DNA from: an uncultured Candidatus Saccharibacteria bacterium
GTDB taxonomy: Bacteria; Patescibacteriota; Minisyncoccia; UBA6257; 1-14-0-10-40-38
Length of the DNA: 62,593 nucleotides
Direction of reading: 5' to 3'
NCBI GenBank assembly: GCA_964543265.1
Contig: CAZIWN010000003.1
Coordinates: 1 to 62,593 of the forward strand
Positions 12,274 to 20,139 of the stretch are shown in pieces (positions within the stretch are counted from its first letter, which is position 1; every line of letters begins with the position of its first letter). A program made the position numbers and the translations under genes. The notes below the pieces were generated by a model. The model was not told the DNA's origin, ran no database searches, and saw nothing but the letters and a program-made list of their open reading frames with translations.

Positions 12274-12381
12274 GATGCTATTAATTTTAGAAATTGTGGC
12301 GTTGCTCCTCCTTGGAGTATTCGCATAGCTTACATACACCTTCGTCGTCGCGCCTTACACTTTCAAAAATTATTTAGCATC
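12274..12381 (+). repeat. Structured ~100-nt intergenic repeat, copy 2 of 5
   Basis: Imperfect ~28-bp closing helix (GATGCTA...GTGGCG / CGCC...TAGCATC). Core GTTGCTCCTCCTTGGAGTATTCGCATAGCTTACATACACCTTCGTCGTCGCGCC. Confidence 0.6.
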
Positions 12382-12389
12382 CGTAGATC

Positions 12390-12432
12390 ATACACAAAAA
12401 TCCGCCACGAAAATGGGCGGATTTTTGTGTAT
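12390..12432. terminator. Intrinsic terminator after rnj
   Basis: 17-bp perfect stem ATACACAAAAATCCGCC / GGCGGATTTTTGTGTAT with a 9-nt loop. Confidence 0.75.
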
Positions 12433-12435
12433 GTA

Positions 12436-12464
12436 TTGACTTTTTAATATTTTAATGCTAAAAT
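12436..12464 (+). promoter_or_regulatory. Near-consensus sigma-70 promoter of GC-rich cassette 1
   Basis: TTGACT, 17-nt spacer, TAAAAT. The SD GAAGGGGG precedes the GTG start at 12506. Confidence 0.6.
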
Positions 12465-12505
12465 AGACAGCAGAAACTCAAACAAAACAAAGAAGGGGGT
12501 GTCGC

Positions 12506-13084
12506 GTGAACATTTATGTGGTTCTTGGCAGTGTCTTGGGAGCGTTGCTTTATTTGCCCTTGTGCTATCAGATTCTGCAGAGGAAAACGACGCAGAATTT
12601 GTGGACGTGGGTGATGTGGGGTATCCTGGACGCGATCGCGCTTCTATCTGTCATATTCCAAGGTGGAAACTATCTCTTATTGGCGGTGTATGTGCTCGGG
12701 AGCACTGCGACTTCTATTGCGATCATCAAGTCTGGAGCCAAGTCTAGCTGGGGCAGATTTGAAACAGTGATTGCACTTCTGGCAGTCGCATGCATGGTCG
12801 TCTGGAGCTTTTCCGGGGCTAAGGTTGCGACTATCGCCAGCACGCTTGCCATAGTCATAGCTGCGCTTCCGCAGATGAAAGATGCCTGGAAGCGACCGCA
12901 CGAGAATCCATGTCTCGTGTATGTCGGCTATACGTTCGCCAATCTTTTTTCCGCAATTGGCGGGAAAGATTGGTCGGTGGAAGAGCGTTTCTATCCGGCA
13001 TCGTGCACCGTTCTCTGTTTAGTAATAACAATACTGATCGCTCGCAAGTTCTGGCTACTAAAGCCAGCTCTAGTGGTCGATTGA
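12506..13084 (+). CDS. GC-rich 6-7-TM membrane protein with two PQ-loop-like motifs
   Basis: 192 aa with a GTG start. LPLCYQILQRK after TM1 and ALPQMKDAWKRP after a later TM. The coding body is visibly much more GC-rich than its flanks. Confidence 0.6.
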   Translation: MNIYVVLGSVLGALLYLPLCYQILQRKTTQNLWTWVMWGILDAIALLSVIFQGGNYLLLAVYVLGSTATSIAIIKSGAKSSWGRFETVIALLAVACMVVWSFSGAKVATIASTLAIVIAALPQMKDAWKRPHENPCLVYVGYTFANLFSAIGGKDWSVEERFYPASCTVLCLVITILIARKFWLLKPALVVD

Positions 13085-13110
13085 TTCCCGCAGATGTACG
13101 CATCGGCGGA

Positions 13111-13161: not shown

Positions 13162-16100
13162 TTAAATTTTCTTTAAAAATATTTCGAACGGAGAACTGTC
13201 TATTTCTCCACGAGAGACAAAGTCGTGAGATATTTTTCTATTATCAGAAAATTCGAACAGAGCCACTCTTTTAGCTTTTAAAGAGGATTTAAATTCATCG
13301 ATAAATTTATTAATGATATTTAAATTTTCTTTTGAGGCCGAAATTGAAATCTCTATTCCCTCACCCACTTTCAAACCAGCGTCTTGTCTGGCTTTCTGGC
13401 AGGTGCGCAAGATTTCTCTAAATCTTCCTTCGGCGAATAATTCTGGAGTTATATTTCTATCTAATTCCAATTCGTTTTCTTGGTCTGCGCCAAAAACGAC
13501 TTCTTTGACGTTGATTTCGTCTTTAATAATCTCTATTAAATCTTTATTTTTGGATAAATTTTTTTCTGCTGATTTAACACTTAATTTAGCTAAGGGTTGG
13601 CGGATCTTGATTCCAATTTCTTGTCTCAATGAGAGCGCGTCTGAACAAATTTTCCTCAAAGCTTCCATATTTACAATCAACGCTTTGTTGGCTGGCGTTA
13701 ATTTTTTAAATTTTGGCCAAGTCTCTAAATGCACTGATTCAAGCTTATTTCCAGCATATAAAGATTTATAAACCGCATCTGCTAGAAATGGAGAAAGTGG
13801 AGCAATTAATTTCGAAATATTGAGTAATGCGAAATTTAAGGTTGCAGAGGCAAAATTTAAATCACTCTCTGAAGACGGAGAAGCAAATCTATCTCTCGAA
13901 CGCCTGATATACCAGCGAGATAAATCATCCACTAGCGCCTCTATGGCCTTGGTGGCCGATAAGGCGTCGTAAGCATCTAAGCTTTTAGTTGTGGCTTCTA
14001 CCGCCTCATTAAGACGGATTAAAATCCATTTATCTAAAAGATTAGGAGATTTATCAGGATTAACTTTAGAGATATTAGAGAAAGCATGAGAATAGGTTTT
14101 AAGATAAGCAAAAGAATTATAAACAAGCATATGTAGCTTTCTATAAACTTTCATAATTTCCGCTTCATCATAGCGCTTAGCTTCTCCTGGGTCGCTGGCG
14201 GAAAAGAAAAACCAGCGGATGACATCAACTCCAAATTTTTTAATAGTTTCCATTGGCTCAACAACGTTGCCTTTAGATTTGGACATTTTCTGTCCGTTTT
14301 TATCTAAGAGGAGTCCAGTTGAGATGACATTCTTATATGGCGCGCCCTTGCCTAAAAGGCATGAGATAGCGAGAAGCGTATAGAACCAGCCGCGAGTTTG
14401 ATCCATGCCTTCAGAGATATAATCCGCTGGAAAAGATTTTTTAGTTGTGATGAGATTTGAATTTTCGAAAGGATAATGGATGGAAGCGAATGGCATGGCG
14501 CCAGAATCGAACCAGACGTCTAAAACTTCTTTGACGCGAGTCATTTTCTTGTGACATTTTTTGCAATTCAAATGAACCTCATCGATAAATGGTTTGTGAA
14601 CGTCTAAAAGTCCATCTCCGTTAAATGGAAGATTGCTTGATTTAATATTTCTCAACTCTCCTGGCTGAATATATTTATATTCAAAGGTTTCTTTTTCTGA
14701 TCTTGAATTTAGAGCGGCATCAAGAAGCCATAATGGATCTCCGTGACTTACGATAACTATATTTTTGCCTTTGTATTTAGAGTTGATTTCCCTAAAAGCC
14801 TCGACAATTCTGCGCCTGACTTCAATTTTTGATTCCCCTCCTTGCGGCACTATAGAAAATTTTTCTGGGCCTTGGCCGTGGAATTTTATATATTCTTCAA
14901 TTTTCTGGCCATTAAAAACTCCGGTATCAATATCTTTTAATCTGTCGTCTTTATGAATTTTGGCCCCAGTGGTTTTAGAAATAATTTCTGAGGTTTCTAA
15001 AGTTCTGGCGTAGGGCGATGAAAAAATTAAATCTATCTTTTTGGTTTTTAATTTTTTAGCTAAAGATTCTATTTGCTTAATTCCCTTCTTGGTTAAATGA
15101 GATGGATTCTTTTTTTCATAATCCCCCATGGCGAGAATATTTTTTAAATTATGTTCTGCCTCTCCGTGCCTAACTAAGAAAAAATTGTTGCTGTTATTTT
15201 CACCATATTTTTCTAAATCAGAAATAGAGCTCACAACTTGGTGAGTGTTACAACTAGAGCATTCCCAGATTGGAAGTGGTGTTCCCCAATATCTTTCGCG
15301 AGAAATCGCCCAGTCTTTCAAGTCTTTCAGCCATTCCCCAAAACGTCCATTTTTAACGTGTTCGGGAATCCAATTAATCTTTTTATTTTCTTTAATTAAG
15401 ACATTTTTAACTGCCGACATCTTAATAAACCAAGAACTTCTGGCATAATAAAGAATTGGCGTGGAACATCTCCAGCAAAATGGATACTCGTGTTTATATA
15501 ATTCTCTTTTAAAGAGATTATTATTTGATTTTAAATATTCAAATATCTTGGCTTCGGTGGCTTTTGACTTAACATATTCTCCGGCAAAATCTTTTACTTC
15601 TGAGACAAATTTTCCTGCATCATCTACAGTATGGAACCTTGGAAGTCCTAATTTTTCTCCCAAAACATAGTCATCTTCTCCGTACATAACGGCAGTGTGC
15701 ACCACTCCAGATCCATCGGAGGTCGTCACAAAACTAGCTCCATATACTTGATATGATTTGGCTGATTTTAAGCTTTTAATATCAAATAATGGCTCGTATT
15801 TTAGGCCGATTAAGTCTTTACCTTGAAGCTTAAAAAGTATTTGCGCGTTTTCACCCAAAACTGAACTCACTCTTTCTTCGGCTAAAACAAATATTTCTCC
15901 CCCAACTTTTACACCCACATAATTTATTTTTTCTCCCACAGCCAGGGCAACATTGCCTGGAAGCGTCCAAGGGGTTGTTGTCCAAGAAACGATATAAGCA
16001 TTATCGGCAAAAGAAACTGTGCCAGTGCGCTGGTTTTTTAAAATTTTAAATTTAACGAAAACTGATTCATCTTCCACTTCTTTATATCCTTGAGCGATTT

Positions 16101-16674
16101 CGTGAGAAGAAAGAGCGGTGCCACACCTCGAACACCATGGAAGAACTTTGTGTCCTTTATATAAATACTTTTTCTTATCTATTTCTGATAATAAATTCCA
16201 GATGCTTTCGATATAGTTATTTTCATAAGTGACATAAGGATTATCCATATCCAGCCAGAAACCCATTCTTTCAGTTAATTTTTCCCAATCGGATTTAAAT
16301 TCCCAAACCGAAGATTTACATTCCTTATTAAATTTAGCCACTCCAAAGGCCTCTATTTCTTTTTTAGATTTCAAACCCAGCTTCTTCTCTACCCCAAGCT
16401 CAACCGGAAGTCCGTGCGTGTCCCAACCCGCTTTGCGAGGCACATAAAAACCCTGCATAGATTTGTAGCGCAAAATAAAATCTTTGAAAGATCTGGCTAA
16501 AACGTGGTGAATTCCTGGGCGGCCGTTGGCGGTTGGCGGACCTTCGAAAAATCTGAATACTTTTTTACCTTGCCTATTTTTGAGCGATTTTTGGAATATT
16601 TTTGAAGTTTTCCAAAATTCTAGTGTCTTTTCTTCAACCTCGCTCATGTTGAAGTTTTTTAAATCTCTTAACAT
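13162..16674 (-). CDS. ileS: Isoleucyl-tRNA synthetase (type 2-like) with an inserted histidine-phosphatase domain
   Basis: HIGH-type PGIHHVLAR, editing-domain TTTPWTLPGN, KMSKS. 1170 aa; residues ~497-685 carry RHGEAEHN...SHGD (see finding). Confidence 0.9.
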   Translation of the reverse strand: MLRDLKNFNMSEVEEKTLEFWKTSKIFQKSLKNRQGKKVFRFFEGPPTANGRPGIHHVLARSFKDFILRYKSMQGFYVPRKAGWDTHGLPVELGVEKKLGLKSKKEIEAFGVAKFNKECKSSVWEFKSDWEKLTERMGFWLDMDNPYVTYENNYIESIWNLLSEIDKKKYLYKGHKVLPWCSRCGTALSSHEIAQGYKEVEDESVFVKFKILKNQRTGTVSFADNAYIVSWTTTPWTLPGNVALAVGEKINYVGVKVGGEIFVLAEERVSSVLGENAQILFKLQGKDLIGLKYEPLFDIKSLKSAKSYQVYGASFVTTSDGSGVVHTAVMYGEDDYVLGEKLGLPRFHTVDDAGKFVSEVKDFAGEYVKSKATEAKIFEYLKSNNNLFKRELYKHEYPFCWRCSTPILYYARSSWFIKMSAVKNVLIKENKKINWIPEHVKNGRFGEWLKDLKDWAISRERYWGTPLPIWECSSCNTHQVVSSISDLEKYGENNSNNFFLVRHGEAEHNLKNILAMGDYEKKNPSHLTKKGIKQIESLAKKLKTKKIDLIFSSPYARTLETSEIISKTTGAKIHKDDRLKDIDTGVFNGQKIEEYIKFHGQGPEKFSIVPQGGESKIEVRRRIVEAFREINSKYKGKNIVIVSHGDPLWLLDAALNSRSEKETFEYKYIQPGELRNIKSSNLPFNGDGLLDVHKPFIDEVHLNCKKCHKKMTRVKEVLDVWFDSGAMPFASIHYPFENSNLITTKKSFPADYISEGMDQTRGWFYTLLAISCLLGKGAPYKNVISTGLLLDKNGQKMSKSKGNVVEPMETIKKFGVDVIRWFFFSASDPGEAKRYDEAEIMKVYRKLHMLVYNSFAYLKTYSHAFSNISKVNPDKSPNLLDKWILIRLNEAVEATTKSLDAYDALSATKAIEALVDDLSRWYIRRSRDRFASPSSESDLNFASATLNFALLNISKLIAPLSPFLADAVYKSLYAGNKLESVHLETWPKFKKLTPANKALIVNMEALRKICSDALSLRQEIGIKIRQPLAKLSVKSAEKNLSKNKDLIEIIKDEINVKEVVFGADQENELELDRNITPELFAEGRFREILRTCQKARQDAGLKVGEGIEISISASKENLNIINKFIDEFKSSLKAKRVALFEFSDNRKISHDFVSRGEIDSSPFEIFLKKI

Positions 16675-16682
16675 GTTTTTGT

Positions 16683-18374
16683 TTATATTCTATTCAAAAC
16701 ATTAATTCCTAAAATTTTTAATCCGTTTTTCAAAACTGCACAAACCGTATCAATCATCATCAACCGAGCGTTTCTAAGGTTAATATCTTTATCTTCTATA
16801 ATGCGGGTTGATTCATAGAATCTGTTGGCATCGTTAGCTAATTCATATAGATAGAGAGCTAAACTATTTAAAGAATTTAAATCTGCGCATTTTTTAATTG
16901 ATTCTGGGAAAAGTAAAATTCTTTTCATAATCCTTTCTTCTTCTGGAGAATTAAGCAGAGAAGTGTCTCCTTTTTTCTTATCTTTCACTTTCATTAAGAT
17001 ATTTAAGAAACGGACATAGGTGTATTGGAGATAAGCAGAGCTGTTGCCGGAGAAATCGAGCATAGCATCCCAATTGAAGACAATATCGGAATATGGGTGC
17101 TGTTTGAGATCGTTATATTTTAAGGCACCTATACCAACTGTTTTTGCGATGACACTAATCTCTTTATCCCCTAGCGATGAATTCTTTTCTTTAACTCTCT
17201 CTTTAGCTAGATCGACAATTTTATCGGCTAATTCTTTTAGTTCGATAATTTTTCCTTCACGGGTGGCAAGTTTTTTGCCGTCTTCGCCTAAAACCATTCC
17301 AAATTTAACGTGAATTAATTCTGTGTCTTCTAGCCCTAAGAGCTTGGCAATCGCGAATAATTGTTCGAAGTGCAGGGTTTGCTGATTAGCAACGACGTAT
17401 AAAATCTTTGATGGTTTGTAGCTTTTAATACGATCTTTCAAACTGGCGATATCGCGGGTAATGTAGAGCGTGGCGCCGTCGGATTTTCTAATCAGTGCTG
17501 GCGGTAGGTTTTCTAGTTCAATAATCTGAGCCCCTTCTGATTCTTTCAGAATTCCCAAGCTTTCAATTGAATCAATAGTTTTGCCTAAAACTTTTTCGTA
17601 GGCGCTTTCTCCTCTTACCACATCAAAAGACACCCCTAAAATTTCGAGCATTTTGTCGGTATCGGCCATAGAAAGACTGCTAAACATTTCCCAAAGCTTT
17701 CTATTTTCAGGATCTCCGTTTTCTAATTTTCTAAATTCTTCTTGGCCTTTAGATTCTAATTCTGGACTAAGCTTTAATTCTTGATGAAATTTAACGTATA
17801 AATCTAGCATCGTCGCCATCGGATCTTTTTTTAACGTTTCTTTGTCGCCCCAGATTTTATAGGCAGCGATGAGTTTGCCGAATTGTGTTCCCCAGTCGCC
17901 GATAAAATTCCAACGGACAACGTTGTAGCCCAAAGTTTTATAGACATTGGCTAAGCCGTCGCCAATGATAGTGGAGCGCAAATGGCCAACGTGCATTGGT
18001 TTGGCGATATTAGTTCCGCAATATTCTACGATGACAGTTTCCCCTCTTCCGATTTTAGATCGGCCAAAAGAATCCCTGTCTTTATAAATACTCTTTAACT
18101 CTTCTTGGAGAAATTCTTTTTTGATAAAAAAATTGATGAAGCCTGGAGCGACAAGCGAAACCGAAGAAAATCTTTTCAAGATTTCTTTATCTGCCAAAAG
18201 GGTTTTAACAATCTCTTCGCCGATTTTTACTGGAGCTGTTTTATTCTTTTTAGCTAGAATAAAAGCGAGATTCATCGAATAATCCCCAAGTTTTTCATCT
18301 GGGGGGGTCAAAATATCAAAATTATCTTCTTTAAATTTGCTAGCTATTCTTTCTTTTAACCAATCTTTTAACAT
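16683..18374 (-). CDS. argS: Arginyl-tRNA synthetase
   Basis: 563 aa with class I motif PMHVGHLRS and an ArgRS-typical C-terminal anticodon-binding region. Confidence 0.9.
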   Translation of the reverse strand: MLKDWLKERIASKFKEDNFDILTPPDEKLGDYSMNLAFILAKKNKTAPVKIGEEIVKTLLADKEILKRFSSVSLVAPGFINFFIKKEFLQEELKSIYKDRDSFGRSKIGRGETVIVEYCGTNIAKPMHVGHLRSTIIGDGLANVYKTLGYNVVRWNFIGDWGTQFGKLIAAYKIWGDKETLKKDPMATMLDLYVKFHQELKLSPELESKGQEEFRKLENGDPENRKLWEMFSSLSMADTDKMLEILGVSFDVVRGESAYEKVLGKTIDSIESLGILKESEGAQIIELENLPPALIRKSDGATLYITRDIASLKDRIKSYKPSKILYVVANQQTLHFEQLFAIAKLLGLEDTELIHVKFGMVLGEDGKKLATREGKIIELKELADKIVDLAKERVKEKNSSLGDKEISVIAKTVGIGALKYNDLKQHPYSDIVFNWDAMLDFSGNSSAYLQYTYVRFLNILMKVKDKKKGDTSLLNSPEEERIMKRILLFPESIKKCADLNSLNSLALYLYELANDANRFYESTRIIEDKDINLRNARLMMIDTVCAVLKNGLKILGINVLNRI

Positions 18375-18437: not shown

Positions 18438-18875
18438 ATGGAAGTTTTGTCAGAAAATAAGAAAGCAGGGATGGAGTATGAAATCCTTGAGAAGTTTGTG
18501 GCAGGGATTGAGCTTAAGGGTTTTGAAGTTAAGTCCGCCAGAAAGGGCAGTTTTGCTGTCTCTGGCGCGTCTTGTGTGCCCGAGGGAAGTGAAGTATTCC
18601 TGATAAATTCAGATATTCATCCGTATCAGAATAATAATTCCCCGAGTGATTATAATAGTAAGCGAGCGAGAAGATTATTGCTGAATAAAAAAGAAATTGA
18701 TTATTTGTTGGGAAATTTTAATAAAGGAATGAAAATTATTCCTCTGAAAGTTTTTTTGAAAGACAATTTGGTTAAGATTGAAATCGCGTTGGTGAAAAAT
18801 AAGAAAAAAGGAGATAAGAGAGAATATTTGAAAGAAAAGGATACGAGGAGGGAAATTAAGAGAGTGGTTGGGTAA
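18438..18875 (+). CDS. smpB: SsrA-binding protein SmpB
   Basis: 145 aa, GIELKGFEVKS and RKLLLNKKEI-type motifs; tmRNA gene nearby. Confidence 0.85.
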   Translation: MEVLSENKKAGMEYEILEKFVAGIELKGFEVKSARKGSFAVSGASCVPEGSEVFLINSDIHPYQNNNSPSDYNSKRARRLLLNKKEIDYLLGNFNKGMKIIPLKVFLKDNLVKIEIALVKNKKKGDKREYLKEKDTRREIKRVVG

Positions 18876-19714: not shown

Positions 19715-19791
19715 ATTATGATTATATGATACTTATTCACGTAAATATACAAATAAACCACCTAGAAATTGGAGTGGTTTATTTGTATTTG

Positions 19792-20139
19792 TGGAAATGG
19801 CGGGAGTTGAACCCGCGTGCAAAAGTTAAATTATTTCCGCGTCTACAAGCTTAGTAGTTGGCTTCTTGCGAAGCTAAAACGATATAGAAAATTTTAATTT
19901 TTAATCCCGATTCGAAAATTTTCTGGAAAATTCGTCGGGACGATCTCTATATATAACACCGGAGAATCCCCTATGGAGAATCGAGGTCCGATGACACCAG
20001 GTTAAGCTAAAGCGAAAGCTGGCATTCTGCTAACTGAATTGTTGGCAGTAATTGTTTGCCTGAATTGATTTGCGAGTACTCTGGCGAAACTCGGCTTGCA
20101 ACGGAAATTATCTAATTTAAGCCAAAGCCTGTCATTCCC
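19792..20139 (-). ncRNA. ssrA: tmRNA (SsrA)
   Basis: 5' GGGAATG pairs with 3' CATTTCC-A, including the G3:U70 wobble. T-arm GCGGG-TTCAACT-CCCGC. Internal tag frame reads ...GCC AAC AAT TCA GTT AGC AGA ATG CCA GCT TTC GCT TTA GCT TAA (ANNSVSRMPAFALA*). Adjacent to smpB. Confidence 0.85.

What the first reader, a model, noticed from the sequence alone, without database searches (positions are those of the whole stretch)
14620..15186. Complete histidine-phosphatase (PGM-like) domain nested inside isoleucyl-tRNA synthetase
The ileS ORF is uninterrupted at 1170 aa and has all the IleRS landmarks: HIGH-type HHVLAR, the editing domain and KMSKS.

Between the first CxxC (C472/C475, PIWECSSCNTH) and the second (C704/C707, HLNCKKCHKK) it carries ~190 extra residues. 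These begin FFLVRHGEAEHNL and later contain IVSHGDPL.

RHG...H is the catalytic signature of histidine-phosphatase superfamily branch 1 (cofactor-dependent PGM, SixA or fructose-2,6-bisphosphatase-like enzymes). The intervening SPYARTLETSE also fits that fold.

The catalytic residues appear intact, so this looks like a functional enzyme domain inserted into the Zn-knuckle/CP region of an essential synthetase rather than a low-complexity expansion. I am not aware of this domain combination being described.

Possible roles include hydrolysis of a phosphorylated nucleotide or tRNA 2',3'-cyclic or 3'-phosphate end, or a moonlighting metabolic activity in a reduced genome.
Basis: partly seen in the sequence, partly recalled or inferred. 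Interest (0 to 1): 0.72.

Follow-up and report, generated by a model that had tools for sequence, protein, structure and literature searches.

The report
Phosphatase domain nested inside isoleucyl-tRNA synthetase
A complete histidine-phosphatase enzyme with every catalytic residue intact sits inside a surface loop of the essential isoleucyl-tRNA synthetase of a Patescibacteria (CPR) bacterium, the same arrangement recurs in many related species, and its role has apparently never been described.

Summary
The ileS ORF (13162..16674, minus strand, 1170 aa) is an editing-competent type-2 IleRS. A 194-residue histidine-phosphatase branch-1 domain (aa 493-686; Pfam E=2.9e-35) replaces about 3 residues at the tip of the zinc-binding CP3 subdomain.

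It is not an assembly artefact:
- All 120 closest homologues carry the same nested architecture.
- So do 78 of 80 fetched species-representative Patescibacteria genomes, in one reading frame.

The phosphatase catalytic set (R502, H503, R557, E614, H644) is invariant in 120/120 orthologues. AlphaFold models are confident. The domain resembles broad-specificity phosphatases (PhoE, PspA, CobC), not phosphoglycerate mutase.

In other Patescibacteria the same phosphatase is a separate ~190-aa gene directly upstream of an insert-less ileS, in the order argS-phosphatase-ileS-recO. Other variants exist:
- 2-4 copies inside IleRS;
- a second insertion site before the anticodon-binding domain;
- C-terminal fusion to ArgRS;
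- fusion to TsaC/Sua5.

Nested and split states interleave on the IleRS tree.

Best reading: a bifunctional IleRS plus an active phosphomonoesterase, derived from its operon neighbour. The substrate is unknown, and any mechanistic link to aminoacylation is inferred, not shown. No paper describing this was found.

The parts
13162..16674 (-). ileS: type-2 isoleucyl-tRNA synthetase, 1170 aa, with a nested phosphatase
   Evidence: The ORF is uninterrupted. TIGR00392 scores 913 bits against a cutoff of 621. The best solved relatives are IleRS2 8c8w/8c8u. The AF2 model has pLDDT 92.4 and pTM 0.85.
15199..16674 (-). IleRS N-terminal part (aa 1-492): first Rossmann half, CP core, CP1 editing domain, CP2 and the first half of CP3
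   Evidence: It aligns to 8c8w residues 11-479. The editing motifs WTTTPWT (aa 231) and GSGVVHTAVMYGEDD (aa 321) are present, and their key residues are invariant.
16504..16515 (-). Class I signature motif in its non-canonical form, GIHH (G54-H57)
   Evidence: Confirmed by translation. G54 and H56 are at least 90% conserved and H57 is invariant among 119 orthologues. The G/AXHH motif is described in PMC10485003.
15250..15261 (-). First CxxC of the CP3 zinc knuckle (C472, C475)
   Evidence: Confirmed by translation. C472 is conserved in 111/120 and C475 in 100/120 orthologues.
14617..15198 (-). Inserted histidine-phosphatase domain (aa 493-686)
   Evidence: The boundaries come from the gap in the alignment to insert-less IleRS2 and to split-type IleRS. 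The insert aligns end to end with the free-standing ~190-aa proteins. Modelled alone it gives pLDDT 89.2 and TM 0.83 to PhoE 1h2e.
14683..15180 (-). Pfam His_Phos_1 match (aa 499-664)
   Evidence: E=2.9e-35, 122 bits against a cutoff of 21.7.
15163..15171 (-). RHG motif: R502, the nucleophile H503, and G504
   Evidence: Confirmed by translation. R502 and H503 are conserved in 120/120 and G504 in 114/120 orthologues.
15004..15006 (-). R557, the second phosphate-binding arginine
   Evidence: Conserved in 120/120 orthologues.
14833..14835 (-). E614, the general acid in the GGES motif
   Evidence: Conserved in 120/120 orthologues.
14743..14745 (-). H644, the second catalytic histidine (SHGDPL)
   Evidence: Conserved in 120/120 orthologues.
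14554..14565 (-). Second CxxC of the CP3 zinc knuckle (C704, C707)
   Evidence: Confirmed by translation. Both cysteines are conserved in 112/120 orthologues.
13162..14616 (-). IleRS C-terminal part (aa 687-1170): rest of CP3, second Rossmann half with KMSKS, anticodon-binding domain and type-2 C-terminal domain
   Evidence: It aligns to 8c8w residues 483-910. Pfam finds Anticodon_1 at aa 881-1029 and DUF5915 at aa 1070-1141.
14275..14289 (-). KMSKS motif (aa 796-800)
   Evidence: Confirmed by translation. K796, M797, S798 and K799 are invariant and S800 is at least 90% conserved.
16683..18374 (-). argS, directly upstream in the same operon, with 8 nt between its stop codon and the ileS start
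   Evidence: Pfam finds Arg_tRNA_synt_N, tRNA-synt_1d and DALR_1. The junction sequence was read directly. The same synteny occurs in relatives that have either a split or a nested phosphatase.

Best explanation
This is one polypeptide with two enzymes.

Shown:
- The host is a normal type-2 IleRS. It has the GXHH signature, KMSKS, intact CP1 editing motifs and a zinc-binding CP3.
- A whole 194-residue histidine-phosphatase (branch 1) protein is grafted into the tip of CP3. It folds as an autonomous PhoE-like domain.
- Every residue of the phosphoryl-transfer machinery is kept: the H503 nucleophile; R502, R557 and H644 holding the phosphate; and E614 as the acid.
- Relatives encode the same phosphatase as a separate gene directly upstream of an insert-less ileS.

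Inferred:
- The domain is an active phosphomonoesterase that works through a phospho-His503 intermediate. Because it keeps the helical cap of the PhoE/CobC type, its substrate is probably a small, probably nucleotide-like phosphomonoester.
- The graft guarantees that the phosphatase is made with IleRS at a fixed ratio of 1:1, or 2-4:1 in the multi-copy variants.
- The nested form arose from the operon neighbour. The most economical route is tandem duplication of the phosphatase-ileS unit followed by two in-frame deletions, giving N-half/phosphatase/C-half.

I put the chance that the phosphatase is catalytically active at about 0.85. I put the chance that its substrate is tied to aminoacylation or tRNA chemistry, rather than being an unrelated housekeeping one, at about 0.4.
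For: Architecture and insertion point:
- Pfam, NCBIfam and the alignment to 8c8w define the nested layout. CP3 is identified from PMC7191050.
- The same architecture occurs in all 120 nearest homologues, which are 49-84% identical.
- It occurs in 78 of 80 GTDB species loci in one frame, including complete genomes CP179887.1 and CP129476.1.

Catalytic residues:
- R502, H503, R557, E614 and H644 are 120/120; R622 is 119/120.
- They are also kept in 45-47 of 47 more distant nested representatives, and in nearly every copy of the multi-copy variants.

Selection and fold:
- The insert is 40% identical to the window across orthologues, against 56% for the core and 34% for the C-terminal domain. It is therefore under purifying selection.
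- AF2 gives pLDDT 92.4 and pTM 0.85 for the full protein, with every 10-residue block spanning the insert averaging 84-98. The insert alone gives 89.2 and 0.88.
- Foldseek's best matches for the insert are PhoE 1h2e (TM 0.83, rmsd 2.2 Å), PspA, HFP, GpgP and CobC.

Origin and linkage:
- Seven of the eight free-standing relatives looked up lie directly upstream of an insert-less ileS. Six of these loci also show the argS-phosphatase-ileS-recO order.
- One further split locus came from the genome scan (L026).
- The nested loci share the argS/smpB/infC/recO context.
- No locus has both a nested and a free copy.

Persistent linkage to translation enzymes:
- Tandem 2-4 copies inside IleRS, and a second insertion site before the anticodon-binding domain in P0271.
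- ArgRS-phosphatase fusion in two independent 70-kb contigs.
- TsaC/Sua5-phosphatase fusion in 4 protein clusters.
Against: - No activity or substrate was measured.
I could not measure how far the phosphatase pocket lies from the synthetic site, the editing site or the tRNA path. CP3 is a peripheral subdomain.
- Patescibacteria fuse small housekeeping enzymes promiscuously. TsaC/Sua5 alone is fused to MGMT, TruB, a cyclic phosphodiesterase, NUDIX, GNAT and a DNA glycosylase. Fusion by itself is therefore weak evidence of shared function.
- recO is as syntenic with ileS as the phosphatase is.
- The ArgRS fusion follows trivially from gene adjacency.
- Nested and split states interleave on the IleRS tree. 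A single simple origin does not explain the distribution.
- The duplication-deletion route is a model, not an observation.
Confidence: 0.6

Rival explanations
1. The phosphatase is an unrelated housekeeping enzyme captured by chance. It acts on a metabolic phosphomonoester that has nothing to do with IleRS. The fusion persists because both activities are needed and the permissive CP3 loop tolerates the insert. At most it gives co-expression in a streamlined genome.
For: - Patescibacteria show many seemingly arbitrary fusions of small enzymes.
- CP3 varies in topology among IleRSs and lacks the zinc motif in some (PMC7191050).
- The nearest characterised relatives are metabolic phosphatases.
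- A more distant relative, P0052, is not linked to ileS.
Against: - The linkage survives several rearrangements and different IleRS lineages: split upstream, nested in CP3, and a second site.
- Tandem amplification to 2-4 copies keeps the catalytic residues in nearly every copy; only P0230 copy 1 has substitutions.
- The three fusion partners found are all ATP-to-AMP-plus-PPi enzymes of tRNA charging or modification.
Confidence: 0.35
2. The domain is a tRNA 3'-end healing phosphatase. It removes a 2'- or 3'-phosphate (after opening of a 2',3'-cyclic phosphate) from A76, so that damaged tRNA can be recharged by the class I synthetases it is attached to.
For: - The partners IleRS and ArgRS are both class I enzymes that use the A76 2'-OH (established knowledge).
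- TsaC/Sua5 in the same bacteria is also found fused to 2H cyclic phosphodiesterase / 2'-5' RNA ligase-type domains.
Against: - The domain keeps the PhoE/CobC-type cap that forms a small-molecule pocket. It is not a minimal, SixA-like open site: the SixA model scores 35 bits against a cutoff of 74.5.
- There is no evident reason why only IleRS would need this.
- TsaC does not bind the tRNA 3' end.
- No geometry is available.
Confidence: 0.1
3. The domain clears a by-product of adenylation. It hydrolyses a phosphorylated by-product of the adenylation reaction next to the enzymes that make it. Candidates are pyrophosphate, AMP, or dinucleoside-polyphosphate breakdown products. This would pull the reaction forward or recycle nucleotides in an organism that cannot synthesise them.
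For: - IleRS, ArgRS and TsaC/Sua5 all convert ATP to an adenylate plus PPi (established knowledge; fusions).
- HIT-family and NUDIX genes sit in the same operon in some split-type loci.
Against: - Branch-1 histidine phosphatases are phosphomonoesterases. PPi hydrolysis is not their typical activity (my own knowledge).
- Degrading AMP would be wasteful.
- I did not test whether these genomes lack an inorganic pyrophosphatase.
Confidence: 0.12
4. The domain is a non-catalytic module. It serves only as a structural, tRNA-binding or regulatory appendage, and the phosphatase chemistry is vestigial.
For: Many synthetase appendages are non-catalytic (established knowledge).
Against: - All five catalytic residues are invariant in 120/120 orthologues at about 40% overall identity of the domain.
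- They are also conserved in the split, ArgRS-fused and multi-copy forms.
Confidence: 0.04
5. Assembly chimera or gene-calling artefact.
For: None. Read data could not be examined.
Against: - There is one frame with no stop codons.
- Composition is uniform.
- 78 independent genome assemblies show the same in-frame architecture.
- The identical protein is on record from NCBI, Logan and ENA assemblies.
Confidence: 0.01

Closest known systems
Type-2 isoleucyl-tRNA synthetase (IleRS2), e.g. Priestia megaterium 8c8u/8c8w and Thermus thermophilus 1ILE
   Same: - The host protein aligns over its whole length apart from the insert (E=3e-251).
- Foldseek target TM-scores are 0.79-0.88.
- It has the type-2 C-terminal domain (DUF5915), a zinc-binding CP3 as in T. 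thermophilus (PMC7191050), and a G/AXHH signature as in natural hyper-resistant IleRS2 (PMC10485003).
   Different: It carries 194 extra residues that form a second enzyme in the CP3 loop. No solved or described IleRS has this.
PhoE (YhfR) broad-specificity phosphatase of Geobacillus stearothermophilus (1h2e, 1ebb) and the PspA / CobC / GpgP / HFP group
   Same: - Same fold: TM 0.83, rmsd 2.2 Å.
- Same catalytic set: RHG, a second Arg, the GES acid and a second His.
- Same helical cap and about the same size (~190-210 aa).
   Different: - Only 19-28% identical.
- It scores below every curated functional model: PspA 85 against 350, CobC 84.5 against 163, archaeal dPGM 91 against 225.
- It forms its own Patescibacteria family (537 representatives at E<=1e-30) and is nested in, or linked to, synthetase genes.
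Rv2228c-type bifunctional RNase H / acid phosphatase (NCBIfam NF005567)
   Same: It is a branch-1 histidine phosphatase of the CobC type fused to an enzyme that acts on nucleic acid. The insert matches that model's phosphatase half (84.7 bits).
   Different: Rv2228c is an end-to-end fusion, not a nested insertion. The partner is different, and the score is far below the cutoff of 326.
Other synthetases with inserted or appended catalytic modules: the CP1 editing domain of IleRS/ValRS/LeuRS, and the GNAT-containing IleRS (NCBIfam NF040702)
   Same: In each case a catalytic domain is carried inside or on a class I synthetase. Synthetases are known to be preferred hosts for domain insertion (PMC13114784).
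   Different: CP1 acts on the synthetase's own products. Here the inserted chemistry (phosphomonoester hydrolysis) has no known place in aminoacylation. The GNAT model matches only through the IleRS part (358 bits against 1999).

Membership tests
Isoleucyl-tRNA synthetase (TIGR00392) | Score above the curated equivalog cutoff | tested here: met
   913.1 bits against a cutoff of 621.4.
Isoleucyl-tRNA synthetase (TIGR00392) | Class I signature motifs (HIGH-type and KMSKS) | tested here: met
   KMSKS lies at aa 796-800. The signature is present as the non-canonical GIHH at aa 54-57, a variant documented for IleRS2 (PMC10485003).
Isoleucyl-tRNA synthetase (TIGR00392) | CP1 editing domain with the Thr-rich peptide and the His/Asp motif | tested here: met
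   WTTTPWT lies at aa 231 and GSGVVHTAVMYGEDD at aa 321. T232-T234, H326 and D335 are invariant. The region matches isolated editing-domain structures such as 1wk8.
Isoleucyl-tRNA synthetase (TIGR00392) | Aminoacylation of tRNAIle | not testable with these tools
   Needs biochemistry.
IleRS type 2 | Closest to IleRS2 and eukaryote-like enzymes, with a type-2 C-terminal domain instead of the type-1 zinc-binding C-terminus | tested here: met
   IleRS2 8c8w gives E=3e-251, against E=5e-113 for IleRS1 8c9f. DUF5915 lies at aa 1070-1141. MupA/MupB models score about 830 bits, below their exception cutoffs of 1900.
Histidine phosphatase superfamily, branch 1 (PF00300) | Score above the Pfam gathering threshold | tested here: met
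   122.1 bits against 21.7, covering profile positions 2-167 of 194.
Histidine phosphatase superfamily, branch 1 (PF00300) | Catalytic core: RHG nucleophile His, second Arg, acid Glu and second His | tested here: met
   R502, H503, R557, E614 and H644 are present and 120/120 conserved.
Histidine phosphatase superfamily, branch 1 (PF00300) | Alpha/beta fold with a central sheet and cap | tested here: met
   In the AF2 model the domain has pLDDT 89-98. Foldseek gives TM 0.83 to 1h2e. This rests on prediction only.
Histidine phosphatase superfamily, branch 1 (PF00300) | Phosphoryl-transfer activity | not testable with these tools
   Needs an enzyme assay.
Cofactor-dependent phosphoglycerate mutase (dPGM) | Score above the curated cutoffs of the dPGM models | tested here: not met
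   pgm_1 scores 31.8 against 81.7. Archaeal dPGM scores 91.1 against 225. GpmB scores 63.8 against 261. The acid residue sits in a GGES motif of the phosphatase type (read from the sequence; the motif assignment is from my own knowledge).
SixA phosphohistidine phosphatase | Score above the TIGR00249 cutoff | tested here: not met
   35 bits against 74.5, matching only residues 2-74 of the 189-aa insert query.
CobC alpha-ribazole phosphatase / PspA phosphoserine phosphatase | Score above the equivalog cutoffs | tested here: not met
   CobC scores 84.5 against 162.9 and PspA 85.3 against 350. The domain resembles them in fold but is not a member.

The most novel reading that the evidence does not exclude
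The phosphatase is a previously unrecognised accessory activity of the translation apparatus in Patescibacteria. It would be mechanistically coupled to adenylate-forming tRNA enzymes (IleRS, ArgRS, TsaC). For example, it might act on the tRNA 3' end or on a nucleotide by-product of aminoacylation. Tethering or nesting would place it where its substrate is made. In addition, the locus switches repeatedly between a split-gene and a nested-domain form, which would be a rare natural case of an operon neighbour becoming an internal domain of an essential enzyme.
Probability: 0.3. Interest if true: 0.85.

Novelty: new variant of a known kind. Interest (0 to 1): 0.7.

Why it matters
Aminoacyl-tRNA synthetases are among the best-studied enzymes. 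Their extra domains usually turn out to have functions such as editing, tRNA binding or signalling.

Here a second, apparently active enzyme of unrelated chemistry is built into the catalytic body of an essential synthetase across many Patescibacteria species. Patescibacteria are abundant, uncultured, reduced-genome bacteria.
- If the phosphatase is coupled to aminoacylation, it would reveal a new step or quality-control activity in tRNA charging.
- If it is not coupled, it is still a clear natural example of how an operon neighbour becomes a nested domain, is amplified, and is exchanged between split and fused forms. It also shows that the CP3 loop of IleRS can accept a 22-kDa enzyme, which is useful for protein engineering.

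The question is directly testable with one recombinant protein.

Tried and rejected
- The 26-sequence alignment A2 was too divergent to seed the genome scan. A tighter alignment, A3, worked, but it sees only family members with the VSHGDPLW motif, so its counts are lower bounds.
- Biopython bootstrapping timed out. I replaced it with my own numpy distances and NJ. These are simple distance trees, not maximum likelihood.
- The tree of the 195-column phosphatase domain is unresolved: nested monophyly appears in 5/200 bootstraps. It cannot polarise the history.
- My first conclusion, a single origin of the nested form (200/200), held only for the window's near relatives. It was overturned by the broader sample.
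- Foldseek with the whole model returned only synthetases, so I made a separate model of the insert.
- Model coordinates and PAE are not exposed. I could not measure the inter-domain geometry.
- The ~400-aa two-domain hits in the representative search have no IleRS flanks and look like generic tandem His_Phos proteins that score high by summation, not members of this family.
- There are no direct or inverted repeats at the insert boundaries beyond chance matches in AT-rich DNA.
- There is no second His_Phos gene in the window.
- Six literature searches and two IleRS-evolution papers yielded no description of this architecture.
Full report
**1. The observation**

The region lies in one uninterrupted ORF, 13162..16674 on the minus strand, 1170 aa long.
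- Pfam finds tRNA-synt_1 split in two around a His_Phos_1 match at aa 499-664 (E=2.9e-35; 122 bits against a gathering score of 21.7). Anticodon_1 and DUF5915 follow.
- NCBIfam names the host ileS (TIGR00392, 913 bits against 621).
- Against the solved type-2 IleRS of Priestia megaterium (8c8w), query 11-492 pairs with chain 11-479 and query 687-1118 pairs with chain 483-910. So 194 residues (aa 493-686, nt 14617..15198) replace about three residues of a loop.
- That loop lies between C472/C475 and C704/C707. Following the domain scheme of PMC7191050, this is the CP3 subdomain, which carries a zinc motif in the Thermus enzyme.
- All motifs and coordinates were checked by translation.
This is the non-canonical G/AXHH signature that Brkic et al. 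linked to mupirocin hyper-resistance in IleRS2 (PMC10485003).

**2. Not an artefact**

- GC content of the insert matches its flanks.
- No repeats mark the junctions.
- All 120 best full-length homologues (49-84% identical, 1141-1373 aa) carry PF00300 as well as the synthetase domains. They are labelled Harrison-, Wolfe-, Jorgensen-, Brenner-, Lipton- and Colwellbacteria, Paceibacterota and Minisyncoccia.
- A scan of one genome per GTDB species with the single motif VSHGDPLW gave 235 confirmed loci. Of the 80 fetched, 78 have N-part, insert and C-part in one frame. These include the complete genomes CP179887.1 and CP129476.1.
- The identical protein is on record from NCBI, Logan and ENA assemblies.

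**3. The inserted domain is a complete, conserved enzyme**

- In an alignment of the 120 orthologues, R502, H503, T528, G531, S553, R557, E614 and H644 are invariant, and R622 is 119/120.
- The domain as a whole is only 40% identical to the window's, compared with 56% for the core and 34% for the C-terminal domain.
- AlphaFold2 with 119 sequences gives mean pLDDT 92.4 and pTM 0.85, with every 10-residue block spanning the insert averaging 84-98. The IleRS part superposes on IleRS2 structures with target TM 0.79-0.88.
- The insert modelled alone gives pLDDT 89.2 and pTM 0.88. Its best structural matches are PhoE (1h2e, TM 0.83, rmsd 2.2 Å), the PspA phosphoserine phosphatase, the riboflavin-pathway HFP, GpgP and CobC. 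Phosphoglycerate mutases rank lower, with poorer target coverage.
- Sequence models agree. The best matches are phosphatase-type, and every curated functional model (dPGM, GpmB, PspA, CobC, SixA) falls well below its cutoff.
- It is therefore a distinct family of the phosphatase kind, not a mutase.

**4. Where it came from**

- The closest free-standing relatives are ~190-aa proteins of Patescibacteria, 33-48% identical to the insert. They align with it end to end.
- I looked up eight of them. Seven lie immediately upstream of an insert-less ileS of 956-1066 aa, often 1-4 nt away or overlapping it.
- Six of these seven loci also have the order rplT-rpmI-infC, smpB | argS, phosphatase, ileS, recO. 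In the seventh, an AI-2E transporter gene replaces argS.
- The eighth and most distant one (P0052) is elsewhere in its genome.
- The genome scan added one more split locus, L026.
- The window and most nested loci have the same smpB | argS, ileS context. In the window, 8 nt separate the argS stop from the ileS start.
- No locus holds both a nested and a free copy, and the window has no second His_Phos gene.
- So the insert is the operon neighbour, relocated about 1.5 kb into the gene that follows it.
- A tandem duplication of the phosphatase-ileS unit followed by two in-frame deletions would give exactly N-half/phosphatase/C-half. This is my inference, not an observation.

**5. The history is not simple**

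- Among the window's 46 near relatives the nested IleRSs form one clade (200/200 NJ bootstraps).
- A profile search of 1.84 billion representatives found 537 family members at E<=1e-30.
- When full-length nested representatives from that search are added, nested and split forms interleave. The split-type IleRS of L004 sits inside a 100%-supported clade of nested enzymes, as sister to nested P0361 (91%). The Moranbacteria-type split enzymes fall among other nested ones, with weak support. The L001/L088 split enzymes are distant.
- Under any rooting, at least two or three changes of state are needed.
- Independent insertion at the same loop, repeated fission, or allele exchange by recombination could each explain this. 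I cannot tell which. The domain tree is unresolved.

**6. Variants**

Among the best 150 representatives:
- 67 are free-standing;
- 47 have IleRS on both sides;
- 21 are partial IleRS.

Eight of the 47 proteins with IleRS on both sides, and three of the partial ones, carry more than one copy:
- P0229 (1468 aa) has two in tandem in CP3.
- P0215 (partial) has four.
- P0271 (1419 aa) has one in CP3 and a second at the position of window residue ~862, just before the anticodon-binding domain.
- Nearly every copy keeps the catalytic residues.
- The P0280 form is seen on six contigs of up to 1.06 Mb.

The same phosphatase family is also fused to other enzymes:
- It sits at the C-terminus of ArgRS (P0222) on two independent 70-kb contigs, in a locus from which ileS is absent.
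- It is fused to the TsaC/Sua5 threonylcarbamoyl-AMP synthase in four protein clusters.

**7. What it does**

Shown:
- An intact IleRS with editing motifs.
- An intact phosphatase active site under purifying selection.
- A persistent physical or genomic link to ileS/argS.

Inferred:
- An active phosphomonoesterase working through phospho-His503.
- It keeps the PhoE/CobC-type cap (helices at aa 592-599 and 603-606). This favours a small, possibly nucleotide-like substrate over a protein.

Evidence for a tie to aminoacylation:
- The link survives several rearrangements.
- The domain is amplified inside IleRS.
- All three fusion partners make an adenylate plus PPi.
- HIT and NUDIX genes sit in some of the operons.

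Evidence against a tie:
- Patescibacteria fuse small enzymes freely. TsaC/Sua5 is fused to MGMT, TruB, a cyclic phosphodiesterase, NUDIX, GNAT and a glycosylase.
- recO is equally syntenic.
- CP3 is peripheral.
- I could not measure the geometry, because the model coordinates are not exposed.

My estimates: activity retained about 0.85; substrate linked to tRNA charging about 0.4; unrelated housekeeping about 0.35; non-catalytic about 0.04.

**8. Comparison and novelty**

- The host is a member of IleRS type 2. The insert is a member of His_Phos branch 1 but of none of its curated functional families (see the membership table).
- Synthetases are known hosts of inserted domains (PMC13114784), and an IleRS with a GNAT domain has its own NCBIfam model.
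- Six literature searches returned no description of a histidine phosphatase in an IleRS. Neither of the two recent IleRS-evolution papers I read mentions one.
- Sources label these proteins only as 'isoleucine--tRNA ligase' or 'class I tRNA ligase family protein'.
- I rate it a new variant of a known kind: widespread in public sequence data, apparently undescribed, and readily testable.

Noticed in passing
window 16504..16515 (-): The class I signature of this IleRS is GIHH, the non-canonical G/AXHH motif that PMC10485003 links to mupirocin hyper-resistance in IleRS2. G54 and H56 are at least 90% conserved and H57 is invariant across 119 orthologues. The whole clade probably carries it.
   Followed up: partly
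window 12350..13100; ORF 12506..13084 (+): A segment with GC about 0.50 sits in a window of about 0.36, directly downstream of ileS where relatives usually have recO. It holds a 192-aa hydrophobic ORF with no Pfam match. It may be acquired DNA.
   Followed up: partly
window 18438..18875 (+) and 19789..20139 (-): smpB and a tmRNA gene (117 bits) lie close together, next to the argS-ileS operon.
   Followed up: no
L092 and L093, 5001-7070: An ArgRS carries a C-terminal phosphatase of the same family (P0222, 689 aa). It appears on two independent 70-kb contigs. recO follows directly, and ileS is absent from the locus.
   Followed up: partly
L091 977-2140; proteins P0308, P0373-P0375: TsaC/Sua5 is fused to the same phosphatase family in four protein clusters. 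In Patescibacteria, TsaC/Sua5 is also fused to MGMT (most often), TruB, 2H cyclic phosphodiesterase domains, NUDIX, GNAT and a purine DNA glycosylase.
   Followed up: partly
proteins P0229, P0215, P0271, P0280, P0298: These IleRS variants have 2-4 phosphatase copies. P0271, and by copy spacing probably P0280 and P0298, have a second insertion site before the anticodon-binding domain. Catalytic residues are kept in nearly all copies across the multi-copy set.
   Followed up: partly
L006 5558-6043; L007 9711-10238; L090 8622-9161: A HIT-family gene lies between the phosphatase and ileS, and NUDIX genes lie right after ileS, in Moranbacteria-type loci. These are further nucleotide hydrolases in the same operon.
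   Followed up: no
L005 3590-4153 (-): A 187-aa protein with two TBP-domain (PF00352) matches sits on a Patescibacteria-like contig between argS and the phosphatase gene.
   Followed up: no
proteins P0260, P0342, P0306: These ORFs start with Met at or just before the phosphatase domain and continue into the C-terminal half of IleRS. They could be truncated gene calls or true split IleRS genes.
   Followed up: no
window 16683..18374 (-) compared with L001 3249-4838: The window's ArgRS is only about 26% identical to the ArgRS of the split-type loci L001 and L092, although the gene order is the same. This suggests different ArgRS lineages at one conserved position.
   Followed up: no
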